Position numbers and translations under genes: made by a program
Shown: piece after piece, positions 1,350-57,345 of the stretch
Layout: each line of letters starts with the position of its first letter
How positions within the stretch are numbered: the first letter of the stretch is position 1
Notes under the pieces: generated by a model
What the model saw: only the letters and a program-made list of their open reading frames with translations
Told to the model about the DNA's origin: nothing
Database searches by the model: none
Source: the human T2T-CHM13v2.0 reference genome, Homo sapiens
Assembly: GCF_009914755.1 (NCBI RefSeq)
Contig: NC_060937.1
Direction: 5' to 3' (one strand)
DNA length: 64,000 nucleotides

Positions 1350-2120
1350 AACCATGGCTGAGGATGGCTGTTATTAAGAGGAGAAGAAATAACAAGTGTT
1401 GACAAGGATGTGGAGAAAAGAGAACCATTGTACACTGTTGGTGGGAATGTAAATTGGTGCAGCCATTATGGAAAACAATATGGAGGGTTCTGAAAAATTA
1501 AAAATAGAACTATTATATGACCCAGCAACTCCTTTTCTGGTTATATGCCCAAAGGAAATAAATTCACCTCAAAGTGATATCTATACTTCCATGTTCACTG
1601 CACCATTATTTATGATAACTAAGATATGAAAACAACCTAAGTGCCCATTACAGATAAATAGATAAATTGTGGTACATATATTCAATGAAATATCATGCAG
1701 CCATAACAAAGGAGAGAAGTCATTTGCAACAACATGGATGAACCTGGAAGATATTATGGTAAGTGAAATAAGCCAATCAGAAAGATAAATACTGCATTAT
1801 ATTACTTATATGTAGGATCTTTTTTAAAAAGTTGAATATTTAGAAGAACTATGGTTACTGGGTATGGGGTGAGACAGAAAATGGGCAGATGTAAGTCACA
1901 GAGTACAAAGTTATAGTTATGTAGGATAAATAAGTCTTTTTATTGCATTTTGTATTAAAATTTTGCTGAGAAAGTAGATTTTAGGGCTCTTAACACACAA
2001 AATGGGGAGGGTAGTAAATATGGGAAATGAGGGTATGTTAATTTCCTTAACTATGATAACCATTTCACTATGTATGCGTACATCAAAACATCATGTTGTA
2101 TACCTTTATATGCAATAAAA
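1350..2120 (+). mobile_element. Old L1 (L1MA/L1MB-type) ORF2 end and 3' UTR
   Basis: aacaagtgttgacaaggatgtggagaaaagagaacc...tacactgttggtgggaatgtaaattggtgcagcc; gcaacaacatggatgaacctggaag; ends catcatgttgtatacc...aataaaa. Confidence 0.85.
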
Positions 2121-15879: not shown

Positions 15880-16237
15880 TGTATTAGTCAATTTTCATGC
15901 TGCTGATAAAGACATACCCGAGACTGGGTAATTTACAAAAGAAAGAGGTTTAATTGAACTTAACAGTTCCATGTGTCTGGGATGCCTCACAATCATGACA
16001 GAAGGCAAGGAGAAGCAAGTCATGTCTTACATGGATTGTAGCATGCAAAGAGAGAGAGCTTGTGCAGGGAGACTCCCATTTTTCAAAACCATCAGATCTA
16101 GTGAGACTTATTCACTATCACAAGACCAGCATGGGAAAGACTTGCCCCCATGATTCAATCACCTCCCTCTGGGTCCCTCCCACAACACATGAGAATTCAA
16201 GATGAGAGTTTGGTGGGGACACAGACAAACCATACCA
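15880..16237 (-). mobile_element. THE1B/C solo LTR (MaLR)
   Basis: tgtattagtc...catgctgctgataaagacatacccgagactggg...ggggacacagacaaaccatacca; TSD ggtac/ggtaa. Confidence 0.9.
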
Positions 16238-35510: not shown

Positions 35511-36310
35511 TACATGAACACAAACATTTTCACACAAATTAAATAGAAATACATCTTCCAGGAATGCCACAAACTTTTTTCATTTAGAAAAGGTTGTTAA
35601 TTTTGGAATATTATCAAGGCTTATTCCTTATCACAGAAAATCATGTTATTATTGTTCATGTTGATCACAATTTTTTTAATTTTTAATTTTTTAAACATTA
35701 TATGTATGTATTGTGAGCAACATGGTATTTTGAAGTATGTATGCATTGTGAAATGGCTAAATCTAGCTAACTAACAAATGCATTACCTCACATAGTTTTT
35801 TTTTTGTGTGTGTGATGAGAGCACTTACCATCCACTCTCTTTGCATTTTTCAAGATACGATATATCATCATTAACTGTAGTCTTCTTGCTATTTAATAGA
35901 TATCTTGAATTTATTCCTCCCTTCCAACTGTAATTATATAGGCTTTGACAAAACATTTTCCTAACCCTCTCTCTCCACTAACCACCCTAACTTCTGGTAA
36001 CCAACATTCTGCCCTCACTTCTATGAGATCAACTTTTTTGGATTCCACATCCAGGCAAGACTATGTGACTTTCTGTGACTGGCTTATTTCACCTAACATA
36101 ATGTTTGCCAGGTTTATCCATGTGATATATATATAATTTTCTTTATCTCTTTATTGATAGCCACAGGTTGTTTCTGTATGTTTCTGTACGTTGGCTATTG
36201 TGAATAACACTGCAGTAAACATGGGAGTGCAGATATCACATGAAGATACTGATTTTCTTTTCTATGTTTTCTTTACAGATTTCATTGCAGCTATAAGGAA
36301 ATACCCTCTT

Positions 36311-36763
36311 TTTCATGCACGTCCGTGTGAAGAGAACACCAAACAGGCTTTGTGTGAGCAACATGGCTGTTTATTTCACCTGGGTGCAGGCGGGCTGAGT
36401 CCGAAAAGAGAGTCAACGAAGGGAGATACGGGTGGGGCCATTTTATAGGATTTGGGTAGGTAAATGAAAATTACAGTCAAAGGGGGTTTGTTCTCTGGTG
36501 GGCAGGAGTGGGGGTCGCAAGGTGCACAGTGGGGGTGCTTTTTGAGCCAGGATGAGCCAGGAAAAGGACTTTCACAAGGTAATGTCATCAGTTAAGGCAA
36601 GGATGGGCCATTTACACTTCTTTTGTGGTGGAATGTCATCAGTCAAGGTGGGGCAGGGCATATTCACTTCTTTTGTGATTCTTCAGTTACTTCAGGCCAT
36701 CTGGGCATATACGTGCAAGTCACAGGGGATGCGATGGCTTGGCTTGGGCTCAGAGGCCTGACA
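36311..36763 (-). repeat. HERV-H 3' LTR7
   Basis: Direct repeat of 41833-42285 (about 18 differences counted); preceded by polypurine tract AAGAAGGCAGGAA (36764-36776); AATAAA in R. Confidence 0.97.
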
Positions 36764-38083
36764 TTCCTGCCTTCTTATATTAATAAGAAAAATAAAATAG
36801 TGTTGAAGTGTTGGGGCGGCGAAAATTTTTGGGAGGTGGTATCTAGAGAGAATGGGTGATGTTTCTCAGGGCTGCTTCAAGCGGGCTTAGGGGTGGCGTG
36901 GGAACCTAGAGTGGGAGAGATTAAGCTGAAGGGAGGTCTTGTGGTAAGGGGTGATATTGTGGGGATGTTAGAAGAAACATTTGTCGTATAGAATGATTGG
37001 TGATGGCCTGGATACGGTTTTGTATTAATTGCAAAACTAAATGGAATAAGAGAAGGAGAAAAACAGGTATAAAAGGTCAAAGAATTGGGACAACTCAGGA
37101 TATCTGATTAGAGAGTGCCTAAGGAGATTCAGCATAGTCCTGCCAGCAAAGATTATTTATTTACTTCAAGAGTTAAGAGTGGCAGTTTGGGGATAGTACC
37201 AGGAGATATCAGCTGTGATGGCTTGGAAAAACAGTGTAAACCGGCAGTGTAAACAAGAGCAGGGCATCTGTGAGTAGTTGAGAACAGTGAATGGGAGTAT
37301 GACTAGACAGAAAATAGTAGGGATGACAAGTTTTTTTTTGCGGGGGCACAGTCTAAGTTGGTCTGGTGTCTGGAATGAGACTGGGGCCTAATAAAAAGGA
37401 GCGTCTATACAGGAGCTCAAATGGGCTGTACCCTGTAGCATTCTGAGGACAGGCCTGAATTCTGAGAAGGGAAAGTGGTAGAAGTATTGTCCAGTCCTTT
37501 TTAAGTTGGTGGCTGAGCTTGGTGAGGTGTGTTTTTAAAAGACCTTTAGTCCGTTCTACTTTTCTTGAAGATGGAGGACCAAAAGGGATATAAAGGTTTC
37601 ACTGAATACTAAGCCTGAAAAACTGCTTGGCTGATTTGACTAATAAAGGCTGGTCTGTTATCAGACTGTATAGAGGTGGGAAGGCTAAACTGAGGAATTA
37701 TGTCTGACAGAAGGGAAGAAATGACTGCGGTGGCCTTCTCAGACCCTGTAGGAAAGGCCTTCACTTATTCAGTGAAAGTGTCTCTTTAGACTAAGAGGTA
37801 TTTTACTTTCCTGACTGGGGCATGTTGAGTAAAGCTAATTTGCCAGTCCTGGGTGGGGGCAAATCCTCGAGCTTGATGTGTAGGGAAGGGAGGGGGCCTG
37901 AATAATCCATGAGGAGTAGTAGCATAGCAGATGGAACACTGAGAAGTTATTTCCTTGAGGATAGATTTCCACGATGGAAAGGAAATGAGAGGTTCTAAGA
38001 GGTGGGCTAGTGGCTTGTACTATAGCATAACCTGCCTTTGCTGGTGTGTGGCGATTGGGCCTGGTGGAACCGCCATCAATAAA

Positions 38084-39141
38084 TCAAGTGTGATCAGGGT
38101 GAGGAACAGGAAAGAAGGAAATTTGGGGAAATGGGGTGAATGTCAGGTGGATCAGAGAGATACAGTCATGGGGGTCAGGTGTGGTATCAGGAATAATGTG
38201 GGAGGCCGGATTGAAGTCCGGGCCAGGAACAATGGTAATTGTGGGAGACTCAACAAAGAGTGAGTATAGCTGAAGGAGCCGGGAAGCAGAAAGTATATGC
38301 GTCAGGTATGAGGAAGAAAATAGATTTTGGAAGTTATGAGAACTGTAGAGAGTGAGTTGAGCATAGTTTGTGATTTTGAGGGCCTCTAAAGTATTAATGC
38401 AGTGGCAGCTGCTGCACGCAGACATGAGGGCTAGGCTAAAACAGTAAGGTCAAGTTGTTTGCACAGAAAGGCTACAGGGTGCGGTCCTGGCTCTTGTGTA
38501 AGAATTCTGACCGCACTAACTATGCCTAGGAAGGAAAGGAGTTATTGTTTTGTAAGGGATTGAGGTTTGGGAGATTAATCGGACATGATCAGCAGGGAAA
38601 GCACGTGTGTTTTTATGAGAATTATGCCGAGATAGGTAACAGATGAGGATAAAATTTGGGCTTGACTGAAGTAATGGGGGCTGTCTATGAAGCCTTGCGG
38701 CAGTACAGCCCAGGTAATTTGCTGAGCCTGATGGGTGTCAGGGTCATTCTAAGTGAAAGCAGAGAGAGGCTGGGACGAGGGGTGCAGGGGAATAGTGAAA
38801 AAAGCATCTTTAAGATCAAGCACGGAATAGTGAGTTGTGGAGGAAGGTATTGAGGACAAAAGAGTGTACAGGTTGGGCACCACCGGGTGGATAGGCAAAA
38901 CAATTTGGTTGATAAGGCGCAGATCCTGAACTAACTTGTAAGGCTTGTCTGGTTTTAGGACAGGTAAAATGGGGGAATTGTAAGGAAAGTTTATAGGTTT
39001 TAAAAGGCCATGCTGTAGCAGGCGAGTGATAACAGGCTTTAATCTTTTTAAAGCCTGCTGCGGGATGGGATATTGGCATTGAGTGGGGTAAGGGTGATTA
39101 GGCTTTAATGAGATGGTAAGGGGTGCATGATCAGTCACCAA
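38084..39141 (-). pseudogene. HERV-H pol remnant (RT N-terminal part, connection/RNase H region), disrupted
   Basis: ORF 38749-39141 QYPIP...PYNSPILPVLKPDKPYKLVQDLRLIN...LDLKDAFFTI; ORF 38084-38425 LSASRLLQL...FNPASHIIP...PHDC. Confidence 0.92.
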
Positions 39142-39294
39142 GGAGGGAGTAGAGGTATCTTATACTTGTGGGTTAAGGTGGGGGGATACAAGAGGAGGAC
39201 GCAAAGGAGGCTTTGGATTGGGAAGAAGGGCGGCAATGAGATATAGCTGTAGTCCAGGAATAGTCAGGGAAGCAGATAATTTAGTTAAAGTGTC

Positions 39295-39519
39295 TCAGCC
39301 TAATAAGGGAACTGGACAGGTGGGGGTAACTAAAAAGGATTGCTTAAAAGAGTATTGTCTAAGTTGGCACCAGAGTTGGGGAGTTTTAAGAGGTTTAGAA
39401 GCCTGGCCGTCAATACCCACAACAGTTATGGAGGCAAGGGAAACAGGCCCTTGAAAAGAAGGTAATGTGGAGTGGGTAGCCTCCGTATTGATTAAGAAGG
39501 GGATGGGCTTACCTTCCAC
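39295..39519 (-). pseudogene. HERV-H protease remnant
   Basis: EGKPIPFLINTEATHSTL...VVGIDG...PTCPVPLLG; the catalytic DTG reads NTE. Confidence 0.9.
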
Positions 39520-39695
39520 TGTGAGAGTTACCTGAAGCTCAGCGTCTGTGATGGTCTAGGGGGCTTCTGAGGCTATCGGGCAGTGTCAGTCTTCAGCCGC
39601 TAAGCCGAGAAGATCTGGGAAGGAGTCAGAGAGCCTTGGGCCAGAGTTCCAGGGGCTCTGGGAGTGGCTGCCAGGTGAGTTGAACAGTTCAATTT

Positions 39696-40900
39696 TCAGT
39701 GGGGTCCCACACAGATGGGACGTGGCTTAGGAGGAATCCCGGGCTGTGGGCATTCCTTGGCCCAGTGGCCAGATTTCCGGCACGTGTAGCAAGCTCCTGT
39801 GGGAGGAGGTTCTGGAGGATCGCCTGGCTGCTGCAGTTCAGGCGTTTGGAAGTTCTTGTGTGCTGGAGATGTGGCTGGGGTTTGTCTCACAGTGGAGGCA
39901 AGGAATTGCAACTTTTTTCTGTTATTGTACACCTTGAAGGTGAGGTAAGTCCGGTTGTGGGGTTTGAGGGCCAGATTCCAATTTTTGGAGTTTTATTTAA
40001 TGTCGGGAGCAGATTGGGTAATAAAATGTATATTGAGAATAAGATGGACTTTTGACCTTTTAGGGTCTAGGGCCGTAAAGCGTCTCAGGGTTGCTGCCAA
40101 ATGAGCCATGAACTGGGCTGGGTTTTTATATTTGATGAAAAAGAGCCTAAACACTTCTGATTTGGGATAAGGAAAAGGAGCGTTAACCTTGATTATGCCT
40201 TTGGCTCCAGCCACCTTTTTAAGAGTAAATTGCTGGGCAGGTGGGGGAGGGCTAGTCACGGAACGAAACTGTAAGCCCGACCAGGTGTGAGGAGGGGAGG
40301 TGATAAAAAGATTACAGGGTGGAGGAGCAGAGGCTGAGGAAGAATTGGGACCTAGCTCAGCCTGGCCAGGAGCAGCCTGGGGAGGAAGGGAGAGGTCAGA
40401 TGGGTCTGTAGAAAAGGAAGATTAGAAAGACTCAGCGACGCTTGGGGTTGGTACTGAGGGGACAGGCAGGAGGGAAAGAAGGAAGATTTGGGACGAGTTG
40501 CACTGGGCACAGAGACTAGGAAGGGACTGATGTGTAAAATAATGCCTGGACGTCAGGAACCTCAGACTGTTTGCCTATTTTACGACAAGAATTATTTAGA
40601 TTTTGCAGGGCGGAAAAATTCAAAGTGCCGTTTTCTGGCTATTTGGAACTACTGTCGAGTTTGTACTGGGGTCAAGCGGCATTGCAGAAGAAAATAAGGC
40701 ATTTAGGTTTTAGGTCAGGTGTGAGTTGAAGAGGTTTTAAGTTTTTGAGAACACAGGCCAAGGGAGTAGAAGGAGGAATGGAGGGTGGAATGTTGCCCAT
40801 AGTGAAGGAAGCCAGCCTAGAGAAAAGAGAGAGTAGAGAAATGGAGGGAAGGGGTTCGGGGGTTCTTACCTTCCAGAAAAGTGGGAAAAGGGGTTGGGGC
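39696..40900 (-). pseudogene. HERV-H gag remnant
   Basis: CCHC knuckle CYTCRKSGHWAKEC; HFITQSAPDIK; MGNIPPSIPPSTPLACVLKN N-terminus; frame broken. Confidence 0.9.
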
Positions 40901-41104
40901 ACAGAGATAAGAGGTTGGGGTGAGGAAATAAGGGATTGGGGCGCAGAGATAGAGGTTGGGGCATGGAAATAAGGGATTGAGACATAGAGATAAGAGGTCG
41001 GGGTGCAGAAATAAGGGATTGGGGCACAGAGATAAGATGTCGGGGTGCAGAAATAAGGGATTGGGGTGCAGAGATAAGAGGTTGGGGTGCAGAAATAAGG
41101 GATT
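40896..41104. repeat. Ten 21-bp monomers (5 x 42-bp dimer) in the HERV-H leader
   Basis: Alternating ggggcacagagataagaggtt / ggggtgcagaaataagggatt. Confidence 0.9.
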
Positions 41105-41109
41105 GGGGG

Positions 41110-41405
41110 TTCTTGCCCCGTAGAAAAGTGGGACTTGCCACTAAGGGTGAATTAGAAGGGGTTGAGGGGTACTTGCCCCTGCCCCAGAAAAGTGGGACTT
41201 GCCGCTAAGGGTGAAGGAGAAGGGGTTGAGGGGTCCTTGCCCCTCTCCCAGAAAAGCGGGACTTGCTGATAAGGGTGAAGGAGAAGGGGTTGAGGGGTAC
41301 TTGCCCCTCTCCCAGAAAAGCAGAGAAGGGGTAGAGACAAGGAGAGAAGGGGTTGAGGTATTTACCCCTTCCCCAGAAAAGCGGGACTTGCCGCTAAGGG
41401 TGAAG
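41110..41405. repeat. 64-bp tandem repeat in the HERV-H leader
   Basis: agaaaag anchor at 41122, 41186, 41250 and 41314, with a variant at 41375. Confidence 0.9.
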
Positions 41406-41812
41406 GACCAAGACAGGCGTCCCTGTGTGGTCTGACACCCTTTAAACGTGGGCGTATAATCAGAGAGGCGTCCCTGCAATGATTAAACACCAAGGGAAGG
41501 CTGCCTTCCCAGTCCGTGACCGGCGCTGGAGTTTTGGGTCCACAGATAAAACGTGTCTCCTTTGTCTCTCCTAGAAAATGAAAGGAATTGAAATTAAGAG
41601 AAGGGAGAGATTGAAGAGTGGAAAGGAGAAAGTGGTGGAGGGACAGTGAGAGAGGTTGGAGAAGAGAGTAAGAAGAGGCCGCTTACCTGATTTAAAATTG
41701 GTGAGATGTTCCTTGGGCTGGTTGGTCTGAGGACCTGAGGTCATAGGTGGATCTTTCTCATGGAGCAAAGAACAGGAGGACAGGGGATTGATCTCCCAAG
41801 GGAGGTCCCCCG

Positions 41813-41830
41813 ATCCGGGTCACAGCACCA
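41813..41830 (-). promoter_or_regulatory. Primer-binding site, tRNA-His
   Basis: Minus strand TGGTGCTGTGACCCGGAT, 2 mismatches to the His PBS TGGTGCCGTGACTCGGAT, next to the 5' LTR. Confidence 0.92.
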
Positions 41831-41832
41831 AA

Positions 41833-42285
41833 TTTCATGCGCATCCATGTGAAGAGACCACCAAACAGGCTTTGTGTGAGCAACATGGCTGTTTATTTCA
41901 CCTGGGTGCAGGCGGGCTGAGTCCGAAAAGAGAGTCAGCAAAGGGAGATAAGGGTGGGGCCATTTTATAGGATTTGGGTAGGTAAAGGAAAATTACAGTC
42001 AAAGGGGGTTTGTTCTCTGGCGGGCAGGAGTAGGGGTTGCAAGGTGCTCAGTGGGGGTGTTTTCTGAGCCAGGATGAGCCAGGAAAAGGACTTTCACAAG
42101 GCAATGTCATCAGTTAAGGCAAGGATGGGCCATTTACACTTCTTTTGTGGTGGAATGTCATCAGTCAAGGTGGGGCAGGGCGTATTCACTTCTTTTGTGA
42201 TTCTTCAGTTACTTCAGGCCATCTGGGCGTATACATGCAAGTCACAGGGGATGCGATGGCTTGGCTTGGGCTCAGAGGCCTGACA
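41833..42285 (-). promoter_or_regulatory. HERV-H 5' LTR7 (promoter/enhancer)
   Basis: TATA box CCTATAAAA; two ACAAAAGA motifs; intact downstream donor CAG|GTAAGC at ~41686. Confidence 0.9.
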
Positions 42286-43049
42286 CTCTTGACTTAGCTA
42301 ATGTCTTTTTAAAGATTGCTAAACTATCATATAATAGTGTTTCCTTAAAAAAGTTTGTGACAGAGGTCTTCAGTCACTTTTTAGTCACTCAGATGGATTG
42401 TTGTTACCTGTAATTACTCTCTTCTCAGATTTCAGTTCTCAAATTCTTTAGCTCAAGATGAATGCCTAAGAATGTAAAAATCATGCTTTACTCTTGAATA
42501 CTTAGCATAGTTCTCTTGATGTGTGCCACCCAAAATGAAGAACAGATAGGCTGACACCTTGATGAACTAAGTACTTTTTGGTTTTCTTGGTAAATCATGA
42601 TGGAAGGCAAAGAAGAAGTAGGCACTTTCTTCACAGGGTGGCAGGATGGAGTCAGTACTTGATTTTATTTTCTTTAAATAGATACCCAGTAGTGGGATTG
42701 TTTGATCATACGTTAGTTCTGTTTTTAATTTTTTCATACTGTTTTTCATAATGGCTGTATTAATTTAAATCCCCACAGAAATATGTAGGGTTCCCTTGTC
42801 TCCATATTCTCACTAACACTTGCTGTATTTTTTTCTTTTTCACAATAGCCATTATAGCTGGAGTGAGGTGATATCTCAATCTGGTTTTAATTTGTATTTT
42901 CTTAATGATTAGTGATGCTGAGCACTTTTCATATACCCATTGCTATTCTATTGCAGAGTAATATCTGTCTAGGTCTTTTGATCATTTTTTAATTAGGTTA
43001 TGTGTTTTCTTGCTGTTGAGTTCCTTATGTACTATAAATATTGACCCCT

Positions 43050-45459
43050 TGATATGGTGTGGCTCTCTGTCCCCACCCAAATCTCATCTCAAATTGTAAT
43101 TCCCACGTGTTGAGAAAGGGACCTTGTGGGATGTGATTAAATCATGGGAGAGGTTTCTCCCCTGCTGTTCTAGTGATAGTGAGGGACTTCTCACAAGATC
43201 TGATGGTTTAAAAGTGGTGGTTTCCCCTGCACTCTCTCTCCCTCCTGCCACAATATAAGATGCACCTTGTTTCTCCTTCACCTTCCACCATGATTGTAAG
43301 TTTCCTGAGGCCTCCAACCCATGTGGAACGGTATGTCAATTAAACTTTTTGTTTATAAATTACCCTGTCTTAGGCAGTTCTTTATAGCAGTGTGAAAATG
43401 GACTAATACAGAGAATTGGTACCAGGAGAGGGATACTGCTGTAAAAACACCTGAAAATGTGGAAGCGACTTTGAAACTGAGTAATGGGCAGATGCTGGAA
43501 CAGTTTGGAGGGCTCAGAAGAAGAAAGAAAGATGTGGGAAAGTTTGAAACTTCCTAGAGCCTTGTTGAATGATTTTTACCAAAATGCTGATAGTGATATA
43601 AACAATGAAGTCCAGGCTGAGATGGTCTCAGATGGAAATAAGGAACTTATTGGGAACCGGAGCAAAAGTCACTCTTGCTATACCTTAGCAAAGAGACAGG
43701 TGGCATTTTACCCCTACCCTAGAGATCTGTGGAACTCTGAAATTGAGAGAGATTATCTAGGGTATCTGGTGAAAAAAAATTCTAAGCCGCAAAGCATTCA
43801 CAATGTGAACTGGCTTTTCCTGAAAGTGTTCACTCACATGCATTCACAAAGGAGATGATTTGAAATTGGAACTTATGTTTAAAAGGGAAGCAGAGCACAA
43901 AGCCTTGGAAAATTTTCAGCCTGACCATGTGGTAGAAAAGAAAAATCCATTTTCTGGGGAGGACTTCAAGTTGGCTGCAGAAATTTGCATAAGTAAGGAG
44001 GAGCCAAATGTTAATAGCCACAACAACGGGGAAAATGTCTCTAGGGCTTGTCAGAGACCTTCATAGCAGCTTGGGCAGTTAAATGAGAAAGACGTCTCCA
44101 GGGCTTGTCAGAGACCTTCATGGCAGCCCCTCCCATCACAGGCCCAGAGCCCTAGGAGGAAAAAATGGTCTCATGGGCCAGCCCCAGGGACCCACTGCTC
44201 TATGCAGCTCTGGGTTATGGCACTCTGCATCCCAGCTGCTCCAGCTCTAGCCATGGCTAAAAGGGTCCAAGGTACAGCTCAGGCTATTGATTCAGATGTT
44301 GCAATCCCCAAGCCTTGGCAGCTTTCACATAATGTTGGGCCTATGGATACACAGAAGGCAAGAGAGGAGGTTTGGGAACCTCTACCTAGATTTCAGAGGG
44401 TGTATGGAAACGCCTGGATGTCCAGGCAGAAGTCTGCTGAAGGGGTGAATACCTCATGGAGAACCTCTGCTTGGGCAGCATGGAAGGAAAATGTGGTGTT
44501 GGAGCCACCACACAGAGGCTCCACTGGGGGACTGCCCAGTGGAGCTGCAAGAAGAGAGTCACCATTCTCCAGAACCCAGAATGGTAGATCCACCAACAGC
44601 TTGCACCATGCATCTGGAAAATCCACAGGCACTCAACGTCAACCCATGAAAACAGCCACAGGTGCTGTAATCTGCAGAGTAACAGGGATGGAGCTGTCCA
44701 AGACTGTGGGAACCTACTCCTTGCATTAGTTTGCCCTGGATGTGAGACATGAACTCAAAGGAGATTTTGGAGCTTTAGGATTTAATGACTGCCTGGCTGG
44801 GTTTCTGATTTGTATGGGGCCTTTGTCCACTTTGTTTTGGCCAATTTCTCCCATTTAGAATAGGAACATTTACCCAATTCCTGTATCCCCATCGTATCTT
44901 GAAAGTAACTAACTTGTTATTTATTTTACAGGCTTATAGGCAGAAGAGACTTGCTTTGTCTCAGATGAAACTTGGACTTTGACTTTTGGGTTAATGCTGG
45001 AATGATTTAAGACTTTAGGGAATTGTTGGGAAGGCATGATTTGTTTTGAAATGTGAAAAGGACATGATATTTGGGAGGGGCTGGGGCAGAATTATATTGT
45101 TTGGCTGTGTCCCCACCCAAATCTCATCTTGAATTATAATCCCCGTGCATCTAAGGAGGGACCTGGTGGAAGGTGATTGGATCTGGGGAGCTGTTTCCCC
45201 TATGCTGTTCTCATAGTAATAAGGGAGTTCTTAGGAGATCCAATGGTTTAAAAGTGGCAGTTTCCCCTGTGCTCTGTCTCTCTCTCTTTCTCCTACAACC
45301 ATGTACGACGAGCCTTGCTTTCCCTTTGCCTTCTGCCATGACTGTAAGCTTCCTGATGCCTCCCAGCCATGCAGAACTGTGAGTCAACTAAACCCCTTTC
45401 TTTATAAATTACCCAGTCTGAGGCAGTTCTTTATAGCAGTGTGAAAACCGACTAATACA
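43050..45459 (+). mobile_element. Full MaLR element (THE1D/MSTA-type): LTR 43050-43410, internal region, LTR 45092-45459
   Basis: tgatatgg...ccccacccaaatctcatct...gactaataca at both ends; internal aattggtaccag...ctgaaaatgtggaagcgactttg; TSD cccct/cccca. Confidence 0.93.
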
Positions 45460-54479: not shown

Positions 54480-57345
54480 CTGTTCTGGTTATTTACTGCA
54501 TTACAAAGCACACCAAACTTGGTAGTCTAAAACAATAATCACTGTATTATATTCAGGATCTAAAGGCAAGAAATTCAGTTCCAGTTTAGCTAGATGAGTT
54601 TTCTGTCCTATATGGCATCAAATTGGGTTACTTAGTAGTATTCAGCTGGCAGTTAAGTTAGTCTGGGGGCTCAAAAATGACTTAACTCACATCTCAGGTG
54701 CCTTGGCAGAAATAGCTGGAAAGCTGTGCCCAGGAGTGTCACTCTCCATCACTATGAGGACTCATATCCTTCACATGTGGTCTGTCCAGCAGGGTGCTCA
54801 GATGTCTAATATGACAGCTTAGGGATCTGGTATGGTTTGGCTCTGTGTTCCCACCCAAATCTCACCTTGAATTGTATTCCCCATAGTCCTCAAGTGTCAA
54901 GGGCATAACCAGATAGAGGTAATTAAATCAGGGTGTGGTGTCCTCCATGCTGTTCTTGTGACAATGAATGAATCTCATGAGAGCTGATGGTTTTATAAGC
55001 ATCTGGCATTTCCCCTGCTTGCATTTCTCCTTCCTGATGCCTTGTGAAGAAGGTGCTTTCTTCCCCTTCACCTTCTGCCATGATTGTAAATTGCCTGAGG
55101 CCTCCCCAGCCATGCTGAACTGTGAGTCAAATAAACCTCTTTCCTCTATAAATTACCCAGTCTCAGGTATGTCTTTATTACCAGCCTGAGAAGGGACAAA
55201 TACAGTAAATTGGTACTGAGGTAGTGCGGTGCTGCTATAAGTGCACCCTAAAATGTGGAAGCAACTTTGAACCTGGGTAACAGACAGAGATTGGCAAAGT
55301 TTGGAGGGCTCAGAAGGAGAGAGAAAAGTATGGGAAAGTTTGTAACTTCCTAGAGACTTGAAGGGCTCAGAAGACAGGAAGATGTGGAAAGGTTTGGTAC
55401 TTCCTAGAGACTTGTTGGATGGCTTTAATCAAAATGCTGATAGCAATACAGACAATGAAGTCCAGACTGAGGTGGTCTCAGATAGAGATGAGGAACTTGT
55501 TGGGAGCTGGAGTAAAGATTATTCTTGTGATGCTTTAGCAAAGAGACTGGTGGCATTTTGCCCTGTCCTAAGATCTGTGGAAATTTTAACTTGAGAGAGA
55601 TGATTTAGGGTATCTGGCAGAATAAATTTCTAAGTGTCAAAGCATACAAGAAGAAGCAGAGCATAAAATTTTGGAAACGTTTCAGCCTGACAATATGATA
55701 AAAAAGAAAAACCCATTTTCTGGGGATAAATTCAAGCTGGCTGCAGAAATTTGCTTATATAGCCAGGAGCCAAATGTTAATCACCAAGACAATGGGAAAA
55801 ATGTCTCCAAGGCATGTCAGAGACCTTCATGGCAGCCCCTCCCATCACAGGCCCAGAGGTCTAAGAGGGAAAAACGGTTTTGTGGGCCAGGTCCAGGGTC
55901 CCCCTGCTCTATGTAGCCTCACAACATGGTTCCCAGTGTCCCAGCTGCTTTAGCGTAGTTGTGACTAAAAAGGGCCAAGGTACAGCTCAGGCTGTTGCTT
56001 CAGAAGGTGCAAGCCCTCAGCCTTGCGGCTTCCACATGGTGTTGGTCCTGTGGGTGCACATAAGCCAAGAATTGAGGTTTGGGAACCTCCACCTAGATTT
56101 CAGATGATGTATGGAAATGCCTGGATGTCCAGACAGAAGTCTGCTGCAGGAGTGGAGCACAGATGGAGAACCTCTGCTAGAGCAGTACAGAAGGGAAATA
56201 TGGGGTTGGAGCCACCATAAAGAGTCCCCACTGGGGCACTGCCTAGTGGAGCTGTGAGAAGAGGGCCAACATACTGCAGATCCTAGAATGGTAGATTCAC
56301 TGACAGCTTACACCGTGCACCTGGAAAAGCCAGACACTCAACACCAGTCTGTGAAAGCAGCTAGTAGTGAGGCTGTACCCTGAAAAGCCACAGAGGTGGA
56401 GCTGCCCAAGGCTGTGGGAGCCCCCTCTTGCATCAGTGTGACCTGTTTGTAAGACATGGAGTCAAAGGAGATCATTTTGAAACTTTAAGGTTTAATGACT
56501 GCTCTATTGGATTTTGGACTTGGATGGGGCTTTGTTTTGGCCAGTTTTTCCCATTTGGAACAGATGCATTCACCCAATGCCTGTAAGCCCATTGTATTTA
56601 AGAAGTAATTAACTTGCTTTTGATTTTACAGGCTCATAGGTGGAAAGGACTTGCCTTGTGCCAGATGAGACTTTGGACTTGAACTTTTGGGTTAATGCTG
56701 GAATGAGTTAAGACTTTGGGGGGACTGTTGGAAGAACATGATTGCATTTTGAAATGTAAGGACATGAGATTTGGCAGGGTCCAGGTAAGGAATGATATGG
56801 TTTGGTTCTGTGTTCCCACCCAAATCTCACCTTGAATTGTAATCCTCATAGTCCCCACCTCAAGGGCAGGACCAGTCAGAGGGAACTGAATCACAGGGGT
56901 GGATTCCCACATGCTGTTCTCATAATAATGAGTCTCGGGAGATCTGATGGTCTTGTAAGAGTCTGGCATTTCCCCTGCTTGCAATTCTCCTTCCTGCCAC
57001 CTTGTGAAGAAGGTGCCTTCCTTCCTCTTTGCCTTCTGTCATGATTGTAAATTTCCTGAGGCCTTCCCACCCATGGCGAGACAGACATGAACTGTGAGTC
57101 AATTAAACCTTTTTCTTTTATAAGTTACCCTGTCTTGGGTATCTCTTTATTAGCAGGATGAGAATGGACTCATACAAGATCCAACTATGAGTGCTCCAAA
57201 AGATAGAAAGTGGCAAAAGGTCACTTCTGTCATATTCTATCAGAGTATTCACAGAGCCTGCCCAGATTCAGGAAACAGAGACGTTGACCCAACATTTCAG
57301 TTTATGGAACATCACACATTTTCTGGTTACCTTTAATTCACCACA
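54480..57345 (-). mobile_element. MLT1H-type LTR split by a THE1D element
   Basis: ttactgcattacaaagcacaccaaacttggtagtctaaaacaata...tccagcagggt...gcttagggatc | ...tcacttctgtcatattctat...gcccagattcagg. Confidence 0.6.
54828..57176 (+). mobile_element. Full THE1D-type MaLR element: LTR 54828-55204, internal region, LTR 56793-57176
   Basis: tggtatggtttggctctgtg...ttttataagcatctggcatttcccctgc...; internal gtaaattggtact...; TSD ggatc/agatc. Confidence 0.93.

What the first reader, a model, noticed from the sequence alone, without database searches (positions are those of the whole stretch)
36247..42675. Fossil retrocopy of a spliced, THE1-LTR-promoted transcript, hidden because HERV-H later split it
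Seen: removing HERV-H and one CTCTT leaves ~410 nt of non-L1 sequence inside a collinear L1MA. It is bounded by a direct repeat (tactgattttcttttct 36247-36263 / tacttgattttattttct 42656-42673), and the right copy ends in an L1-endonuclease-like CTTT/AAA. On the minus strand the insert starts with ~63 nt of THE1D-type LTR (actgactccatcctgccaccctgtgaagaaagtgcc...gccttccatcATGATT) and switches to unrelated sequence (|taccaagaaaacc) at 42593/42592. The intact LTR in this window reads CATGATT|GTAAGT at that exact position (43296), i.e. a splice donor. The fragment begins roughly 25-30 nt past the LTR TATA position, close to the expected start site. The insert ends with AATGAA and an A-rich tract. 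Established: MaLR LTRs act as promoters and first exons in germline, early embryo and placenta, and L1 mobilises cellular RNAs in trans. Inference: this is a near full-length cDNA of an LTR-driven chimeric RNA from another locus, a fossil record of ancient germline LTR-promoter use.
Basis: partly seen in the sequence, partly recalled or inferred. Interest (0 to 1): 0.8.

Follow-up and report, generated by a model that had tools for sequence, protein, structure and literature searches.

The report
Retrocopy of an LTR-started spliced RNA
This is an old reverse-transcribed copy of a spliced non-coding RNA from chromosome 6 whose first exon came from a retrotransposon LTR, later split by a provirus; it is a tidy record of past LTR promoter use but an ordinary kind of element.

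Summary
With the provirus (36311-42285) and one CTCTT removed, 412 nt remain. They are flanked by a 17/18-nt duplication of host-repeat sequence that occurs once in two other copies of that repeat.

The non-LTR part has one other match in the genome, chr6:70067638-70068042 (+), at 87% identity.
- At chr6 the sequence at the LTR/unique switch is preceded by AG (aataaAG|TACCAAG).
- A 101-nt intron with standard signals (CAG|GTAAGT, CTAAC, pyrimidine tract, CAG|G) is present at chr6 and absent here.
- Homology ends 8 nt after AATGAA, where chr6 continues with a GU-rich tract.
- chr6 reads straight across the provirus insertion point.

The 63-nt first exon matches MaLR LTR copies at 89-94%. It starts at the 31st base from the TATA box and ends at ATGATT|GT.

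Corrections:
- The LTR piece resembles MST-type copies, not the THE1D-like LTR in the window.
- The poly(A) remnant is only 9 nt.
- The source LTR was not found. None of eight same-strand MaLR LTRs in 230 kb upstream of the chr6 exons matches better than unrelated copies.

Verdict: a new member of a known kind (L1-type processed retrocopy of an LTR-initiated RNA). Moderate interest.

The parts
36247..36263 (.). Left copy of the target-site duplication (on the insert's own strand, the copy 3' of the insert)
   Evidence: 16 identities, 1 mismatch, 1 gap against 42656-42673; the segment is single-copy in two other copies of the host repeat.
36264..36272 (-). Degenerate poly(A)-tail remnant (AGAAAACAT on the minus strand)
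   Evidence: homology to the chr6 parent stops at insert base 403. The remaining 9 nt are A-rich and abut the duplication.
36273..36310 (-). Last 38 nt of retrocopy exon 3, holding the AATGAA hexamer (36286-36281); 36306-36310 is the CTCTT duplicated by the provirus
   Evidence: aligns to L004 about 1866-1905. chr6 reads through the provirus insertion point without interruption.
36311..42285 (-). Later provirus insertion (HERV-H by recalled LTR7 sequence); LTRs at 36311-36763 and 41833-42285
   Evidence: LTRs differ at 18 of 453 positions; 5-nt CTCTT duplication. Gag_p30, zf-CCHC and RVT_1 pieces on the minus strand.
42286..42290 (.). Second CTCTT copy (provirus target-site duplication)
42291..42407 (-). 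First 117 nt of retrocopy exon 3
   Evidence: aligns to L004 from 1731 onward, directly after exon 2. The 101-nt chr6 intron is absent.
42408..42592 (-). Retrocopy exon 2 (185 nt); 42463-42520 is a 58-nt stretch with no counterpart on chr6 or elsewhere
   Evidence: aligns to L004 1501-1629; the extra stretch matches only itself in the genome.
42593..42655 (-). Retrocopy exon 1: 63 nt of a MaLR (MST-type) LTR, from about the start site to the ATGATT|GT donor
42656..42673 (.). Right copy of the target-site duplication; in the empty site it is followed by TTAAAT, giving an L1-endonuclease-like CTTT/AAAT

Best explanation
A spliced, polyadenylated, probably non-coding RNA was transcribed from a locus now at chr6:70.07 Mb (T2T). 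Its first exon was the 63 nt of a MaLR (MST-type) LTR between that LTR's start site and its ATGATT|GTAAGT donor. That exon was spliced to an acceptor (aataaAG|TACCAAG) and on through a 101-nt intron to a terminal exon that ends after AATGAA.

The mature RNA was reverse-transcribed and inserted by target-primed reverse transcription of the L1 type into an older dispersed repeat on chr13. This produced a 17-nt target-site duplication at a CTTT/AAAT site. Much later a gammaretrovirus-like provirus landed inside the copy and split it 38 + 9 nt from its 3' end.

Shown: retrocopy status, the parent exons, both splice junctions, the 3' end, and the order of insertions.
Inferred: that the LTR was the promoter rather than merely an exon, that L1 supplied the enzymes, and that the RNA was made in germline or early-embryo cells, which any heritable retrocopy requires.
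For: 1. One parent. The 302-nt unique part hits only itself and chr6:70067638-70067971. Over 268 aligned nt there are 35 differences (K2P 0.145).
2. First splice junction. The LTR homology ends at insert base 63. All four MaLR LTRs in the window, plus the chr10 copy and the chr6 candidate LTR, read ATGATT|GT at that point; the chr5 copy reads ATGATT|AT. On chr6 the next insert base is preceded by AG.
3. Intron loss. L004 1630-1730 (101 nt; CAG|GTAAGT, CTAAC about 33 nt before the end, tgcttctttccacAG|G) is absent from the insert.
4. 3' end. Homology stops 8 nt after AATGAA. chr6 then continues tttgtggttatttgtttatttt, while the insert has AGAAAACAT followed by the duplication.
5. Target-site duplication shown against two other copies of the host repeat.
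6. 5' end. In the two closest LTR copies the distance from the TATAAG first T to the end of ATGATT is 93 nt. The 63-nt exon therefore starts at base 31, next to an initiator-like TCACTCC.
7. Order of events. chr6 is continuous across the provirus site. Provirus LTR divergence is 4.0% against 14.5% for retrocopy versus parent.
8. Known biology. MaLR LTRs start transcripts that splice to exons tens of kb away in human oocytes and in DUX4-expressing cells (passages of PMC6908575; PMC3836709). MaLR LTRs carry a donor near their 3' end (passage of PMC5538554).
Against: The source LTR was not found.
- In 230 kb upstream of the chr6 acceptor there are 8 same-strand MaLR LTRs.
- The best, chr6:70003034-70003421 (64 kb upstream; TATA and ATGATT|GTAAGT intact), matches exon 1 at only 46 of 60 positions.
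- That is worse than an unrelated window LTR (52/60) and than 40 of 40 scored genomic copies (89-100%, one being the insert itself).
- A 45-nt pattern with up to 3 mismatches found 5 sites, none near chr6:70 Mb.

Other points against or unresolved:
- The poly(A) remnant is only 9 nt and interrupted.
- AATGAA lies unusually close (8 nt) to the inferred cleavage site.
- The retrocopy has 58 nt that chr6 lacks, and chr6 has 18 nt that the retrocopy lacks. Both are unexplained indels.
- The intron's first bases and exon 3's first bases are alike (ACAGGTAAG), so a deletion between short repeats would leave the same junction.
- The host repeat could not be shown to be L1 by Pfam (0 of 17 ORF pieces matched). 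That name and the LTR subfamily names are recalled, because no repeat library was available.
Confidence: 0.87

Rival explanations
1. The RNA started at an unknown promoter upstream of the LTR. The LTR piece was only an internal or read-through exon, and reverse transcription happened to stop at the LTR's start-site position. The element would still be a retrocopy of a spliced RNA, but not a record of LTR promoter use.
For: 5' truncation is common in L1-type retrocopies (established knowledge). No source LTR could be examined in place.
Against: The 5' end falls at the 31st base from TATAAG, beside an initiator-like motif. That coincidence is of the order of a few per cent for a random stop. Franke et al. 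report no splice acceptor in these LTRs (passage of PMC5538554), so an internal LTR exon is not expected.
Confidence: 0.07
2. The LTR/unique junction arose when the reverse transcriptase switched templates from the chr6 RNA to an unrelated LTR RNA, as in chimeric retrocopies of the U6-L1 type, and not by splicing.
For: Such chimeras are known (recalled; no paper was read for this). The LTR piece does not match any LTR near the chr6 exons.
Against: The junction sits exactly on a GT donor on the LTR side and exactly after an AG on the chr6 side. A template switch has no reason to respect either. The LTR piece would also have to end at its own start site.
Confidence: 0.03
3. A DNA-level duplication or transposition from chr6, followed by deletions that mimic intron loss.
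For: ACAGGTAAG occurs at both ends of the 101-nt segment, so a repeat-mediated deletion is formally possible. Two other indels exist.
Against: The copy begins at an LTR start site, ends at a poly(A)-site context, carries an A-rich remnant and a 17-nt duplication at a CTTT/AAAT site, and lacks all chr6 flanking sequence. The missing segment has a full set of intron signals.
Confidence: 0.02

Closest known systems
L1-mediated processed retrocopies (processed pseudogenes), including their use as 'genomic fossils' of past transcripts (Shemesh et al. 2006 PNAS; seen only as a reference entry, not held; content recalled)
   Same: Intronless copy of a spliced RNA. It ends at a poly(A) site with an A-rich remnant, has a 17-nt target-site duplication at an L1-endonuclease-like site, and has its parent on another chromosome.
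   Different: The parent appears to be a short non-coding RNA, not a protein-coding mRNA. A 2025 review calls lncRNA-derived pseudogenes little studied (passage of PMC12747553). The first exon is LTR-derived.
LTR-initiated chimeric transcripts from MaLR LTRs (MSTA-RHOBTB3 and others in human oocytes, PMC6908575; THE1B-HEY1 and others with DUX4, PMC3836709; MT/ORR1 in mouse oocytes, PMC5538554)
   Same: The transcript starts in a MaLR LTR, uses the LTR's donor near its 3' end, and splices to a distant non-LTR acceptor.
   Different: Here the transcript is known only from its DNA copy. No RNA data were available, and the driving LTR was not located.
'Pseudogene recycling' by ERVL/MaLR LTRs (Franke et al. 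2017, PMC5538554, passages)
   Same: An LTR and a processed pseudogene occur in one structure.
   Different: In recycling, an LTR in the DNA next to a pseudogene drives it. Here the LTR piece is part of the retrocopied RNA itself: it lies inside the target-site duplication and is limited to the stretch from start site to donor.

Membership tests
L1-type processed retrocopy | Lacks an intron that the parent locus has | tested here: met
   A 101-nt GT..AG intron (L004 1630-1730) is absent from the insert.
L1-type processed retrocopy | Flanked by a target-site duplication of roughly 7-20 nt | tested here: met
   17/18 nt with 16 identities. The segment is single-copy in two other copies of the host repeat.
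L1-type processed retrocopy | 3' end at a polyadenylation site, followed by a poly(A) tail | tested here: inconclusive
   Homology ends 8 nt after AATGAA, and a GU-rich tract follows in the parent. Only a 9-nt interrupted A-rich remnant is left.
L1-type processed retrocopy | Insertion at a TTTT/AA-like endonuclease site | tested here: met
   The reconstructed empty site reads ...TTTTCTTT/AAAT on the nicked strand, one departure from TTTT/AA. The consensus itself is recalled.
LTR-initiated chimeric transcript | 5' end at the LTR's transcription start site | tested here: met
   The first base is the 31st from the TATAAG first T in two close copies, beside an initiator-like TCACTCC. This is positional evidence only; no CAGE data were available.
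LTR-initiated chimeric transcript | The LTR's own splice donor is joined to a non-LTR acceptor | tested here: met
   ATGATT|GT in 4 of 4 window LTRs, plus the chr10 copy and the chr6 candidate LTR; the chr5 copy reads AT. AG|TACCAAG on chr6.
LTR-initiated chimeric transcript | A same-strand source LTR upstream of the parent exons | tested here: inconclusive
   8 same-strand MaLR LTRs lie in 230 kb upstream. The best matches exon 1 at 46/60, no better than unrelated copies.
   42/59 to the THE1D-like LTR at 43.2 kb, against 52/60 to the LTR at 57.0 kb and 94% to copies on chr10 and chr5. Subfamily names are recalled; no repeat library was available.
Template-switch chimeric retrocopy (U6-L1 type) | Junction unrelated to splice sites | tested here: not met
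   The junction coincides with a GT donor and an AG acceptor.
HERV-H provirus (the splitting element) | LTR pair, short target duplication, and gag-pro-pol remnants of gammaretroviral type | tested here: met
   453-nt LTRs differing at 18 positions, CTCTT duplication, and Gag_p30, zf-CCHC and RVT_1 in order. The name HERV-H/LTR7 rests on recalled sequence.

The most novel reading that the evidence does not exclude
The chr13 retrocopy may be the only surviving record of an LTR-driven germline gene on chr6 whose promoter LTR has since been lost or lies more than 230 kb away. That gene may have been, or become, a small protein-coding gene using the LTR's own ATG. In today's chr6 sequence, the frame set by ATGATT stays open for 63 further codons across both exons; 39 of 5000 shuffles reach this.
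Probability: 0.08. Interest if true: 0.6.

Novelty: new member of a known kind. Interest (0 to 1): 0.4.

Why it matters
A heritable retrocopy can only form in germline or early-embryo cells. This copy therefore fixes a time and a cell lineage in which a particular MaLR LTR acted as start site and first exon. On the same clock that time is well before the provirus insertion: 14.5% divergence from the parent against 4.0% between the provirus LTRs.

It shows that retrocopies of non-coding RNAs can be mined for repeat-derived first exons. That gives a sequence-only record of past LTR promoter use, independent of RNA data from living species. As a single case it adds an example, not a new principle.

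Tried and rejected
- Source LTR. I fetched 230 kb upstream of the chr6 acceptor and compared every same-strand MaLR LTR with exon 1. None stands out.
- Genome-wide search with exon 1. It gave 40 scored of 409 candidates, none near chr6:70 Mb. A 45-nt pattern with up to 3 mismatches gave 5 sites, none there.
- The weak similarity between exon 1 and the 70 nt upstream of the chr6 acceptor is chance: 118 of 2000 shuffles and 5 of 83 natural windows reach its score.
- The 58-nt extra piece has no second copy in the genome.
- Rfam gave nothing relevant for the insert or the parent, only Alu-type SRP matches upstream in L004.
- Pfam on open pieces of the host repeat gave 0 of 17 matches, so 'L1' is not shown by protein domains.
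- Parent gene identity. A 7tm_2 exon lies 436 kb downstream on the same strand. No HRM exon was found on chr6 near it. Whether the parent exons sit inside that gene stays open.
- Protein searches with the 43-aa translation of chr6 exon 2 found nothing, in both the longer and the near length ranges.
- Print searches for retrocopies carrying LTR-derived first exons listed no paper describing one. Of the listed papers I read passages of only PMC5538554 and PMC12747553. This is not proof of absence, because subscription journals are mostly not held.
Full report
**What is in the window**

The stretch 36311-42285 is a provirus on the minus strand.
- Its two 453-nt LTRs (36311-36763 and 41833-42285) differ at 18 of 453 positions.
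- CTCTT flanks it on both sides, at 36306-36310 and 42286-42290.
- Open pieces of its interior match Gag_p30, zf-CCHC and RVT_1, in that order, on the minus strand.
- The name HERV-H/LTR7 rests on my recall of the LTR ends.

Taking out the provirus and one CTCTT leaves 47 + 365 = 412 nt. This insert lies between 36247-36263 and 42656-42673, which align with 16 identities, one mismatch and one gap.

**The flanking repeat is a real target-site duplication**

The sequence on both sides belongs to a dispersed repeat. By recall it is the 3' part of L1 ORF2. Pfam gave no support for that name: 0 of 17 open pieces matched.

Other copies of this repeat occur in the window and in the chr6 sequence I fetched. 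I joined the left flank to the right flank with only one copy of the repeated segment. The result aligns collinearly to window 1500-1620(-) and to a chr6 copy, and each of those has the segment once. The segment is therefore native host-repeat sequence that was duplicated on insertion.

In the empty site the nicked strand reads ...TTTTCTTT/AAAT. That is close to the L1 endonuclease preference, TTTT/AA (recalled).

**The first 63 nt are LTR, from start site to donor**

Read on the minus strand, insert bases 5-63 match four MaLR LTRs in the window: 52/60 at 56987-57046, 44/59 at 55027-55085, 42/59 at 43238-43295 and 41/57 at 16045-15991. All four alignments stop at insert base 63.

All four LTRs continue ATGATT|GTAA or GTGA.

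Genome-wide, 40 of 409 candidates were scored. They match at 89-100%, one being the insert itself, and 32 of the 40 cover bases 1-63 in full.

In the two best copies other than the insert itself (chr10, L025; chr5, L026), the distance from the first T of TATAAG to the end of ATGATT is 93 nt. The 63-nt piece therefore begins at base 31 from the TATA box, three bases before the A of an initiator-like TCACTCC.

The THE1D-like LTR at 43.2 kb is among the worst matches, and the piece carries the GTGAAGAA motif of the better-matching copies. I recall that motif as MST-type, but no repeat library was at hand.

**The parent locus**

The 302-nt non-LTR part (42291-42592) has one match in the 3.1-Gb assembly besides itself: chr6:70067638-70067971 on the plus strand. 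The alignment shows four things.

1. The first non-LTR base of the insert, TACCAAG..., is preceded on chr6 by aataaAG. The LTR/unique switch therefore lies exactly at an acceptor.
2. chr6 has a 101-nt segment (L004 1630-1730) that the insert lacks. It begins CAG|GTAAGT, has CTAAC about 33 nt before its end and a pyrimidine tract, and ends cacAG|G.
3. Homology stops 8 nt after AATGAA. chr6 then runs on with tttgtggttatttgtttatttt, whereas the insert has AGAAAACAT and then the duplication.
4. chr6 is continuous across the point where the provirus sits, so the two halves belong together and the provirus came later.

The 70 nt upstream of the chr6 acceptor are not LTR-like. Their best local score against exon 1 is reached by 118 of 2000 shuffles and by 5 of 83 other windows of the locus. 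The LTR piece and the unique part are therefore not contiguous in the parent DNA.

**Age**

- Retrocopy and parent differ at 35 of 268 aligned positions (21 transitions, 14 transversions), giving K2P 0.145.
- The provirus LTRs differ by 4.0%.
- On one clock the retrocopy is about 3.6 times older than the provirus insertion.
- Absolute dates depend on a rate that I recall rather than measured. A range of 1.2 to 2.2 x 10^-9 per site per year gives roughly 60 to 33 million years for the retrocopy.

**What was not found**

I fetched 230 kb upstream of the chr6 acceptor. It holds eight same-strand MaLR LTRs.

The only one with the GTGAAGAA-type motif is chr6:70003034-70003421, 64 kb upstream. It has a TATA-like box and ATGATT|GTAAGT. 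However, it matches exon 1 at only 46 of 60 positions. That is below an unrelated window copy (52/60) and below the 87% seen for the rest of the retrocopy. I do not think it is the source; my estimate is about 10-15%.

A 45-nt pattern with up to three mismatches found five sites, none near the locus. More upstream sequence could not be fetched. The source LTR may lie further away, may have been lost, or may have diverged beyond recognition over 63 nt.

**Loose ends**

- The retrocopy has 58 nt (42463-42520) that chr6 lacks and that occur nowhere else in the genome.
- chr6 has 18 nt that the retrocopy lacks.
- Both look like later indels, but only primate orthologues could say on which side they arose.
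- The intron and exon 3 both begin GTAAG after ACAG. A repeat-mediated deletion would leave the same junction. The full set of intron signals makes splicing the better reading.

**Mechanism and rivals**

The best reading is an L1-type retrocopy of an LTR-initiated, twice-spliced, polyadenylated RNA. My confidence is 0.87 for the whole, and somewhat less for the sub-claim that the LTR was the promoter.

Three rivals remain:
- An upstream promoter with chance 5' truncation at the start-site position (0.07).
- A template switch by the reverse transcriptase (0.03). The junction respecting both a donor and an acceptor speaks against it.
- DNA-level duplication followed by deletions (0.02).

Published work fits the main reading:
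- MSTA and other MaLR LTRs start oocyte transcripts that splice to exons more than 20 kb away (passages of PMC6908575).
- DUX4-bound MaLR LTRs do the same (passages of PMC3836709).
- MaLR LTRs carry a donor near their 3' end and no acceptor (passage of PMC5538554).

**Novelty**

This is a known kind of element. Processed retrocopies are already treated in print as fossils of past transcripts. That idea is recalled from Shemesh et al. 2006, which I saw only as a reference entry and which is not held in the library.

Three text searches listed no paper describing a retrocopy that carries an LTR-derived first exon. Franke et al. describe the converse, LTRs in DNA driving neighbouring pseudogenes. 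A 2025 review calls lncRNA-derived pseudogenes little studied. The library lacks most subscription journals, so this is weak evidence of absence.

I rate it a new member of a known kind, interest 0.4.

Noticed in passing
L004:1501-1629 and L004:1731-1793 (chr6:70067638-70067930): In today's chr6 sequence, the frame set by the LTR's ATGATT would stay open for 63 further codons across both exons; 39 of 5000 shuffles reach this. The retrocopy's frame is broken by a 1-nt gap and the 58-nt stretch. No homologue of the 43-aa exon-2 translation was found.
   Followed up: partly
chr6:70022973-70025244, 70033387-70035661, 70043649-70045973 (within L006-L009): Three pairs of same-strand MaLR LTRs, each about 1.8 kb apart, lie within 23 kb. 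They look like three full-length MaLR elements in one orientation upstream of the parent exons.
   Followed up: no
G000:C6:70503545-70503700 (+): A 7tm_2 (class B receptor) exon lies 436 kb downstream of the parent exons on the same strand. By recall this would be ADGRB3, so the parent exons may sit in one of its introns. No HRM exon was found nearby.
   Followed up: partly
window 56740-57200, 54790-55230, 43040-43420 (+) and about 15940-16115 (-): Four further MaLR LTRs in the window all keep ATGATT|GT at the donor position. The three on the plus strand lie downstream of the insert.
   Followed up: partly
window 42463-42520: A 58-nt stretch inside retrocopy exon 2 has no counterpart on chr6 and no other copy in the genome. 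Whether it was lost from chr6 or gained here is unknown.
   Followed up: partly
L004:892-1173 (-): Signal-recognition-particle-RNA-like matches below threshold, typical of an Alu element, lie about 330 nt upstream of the chr6 acceptor.
   Followed up: no
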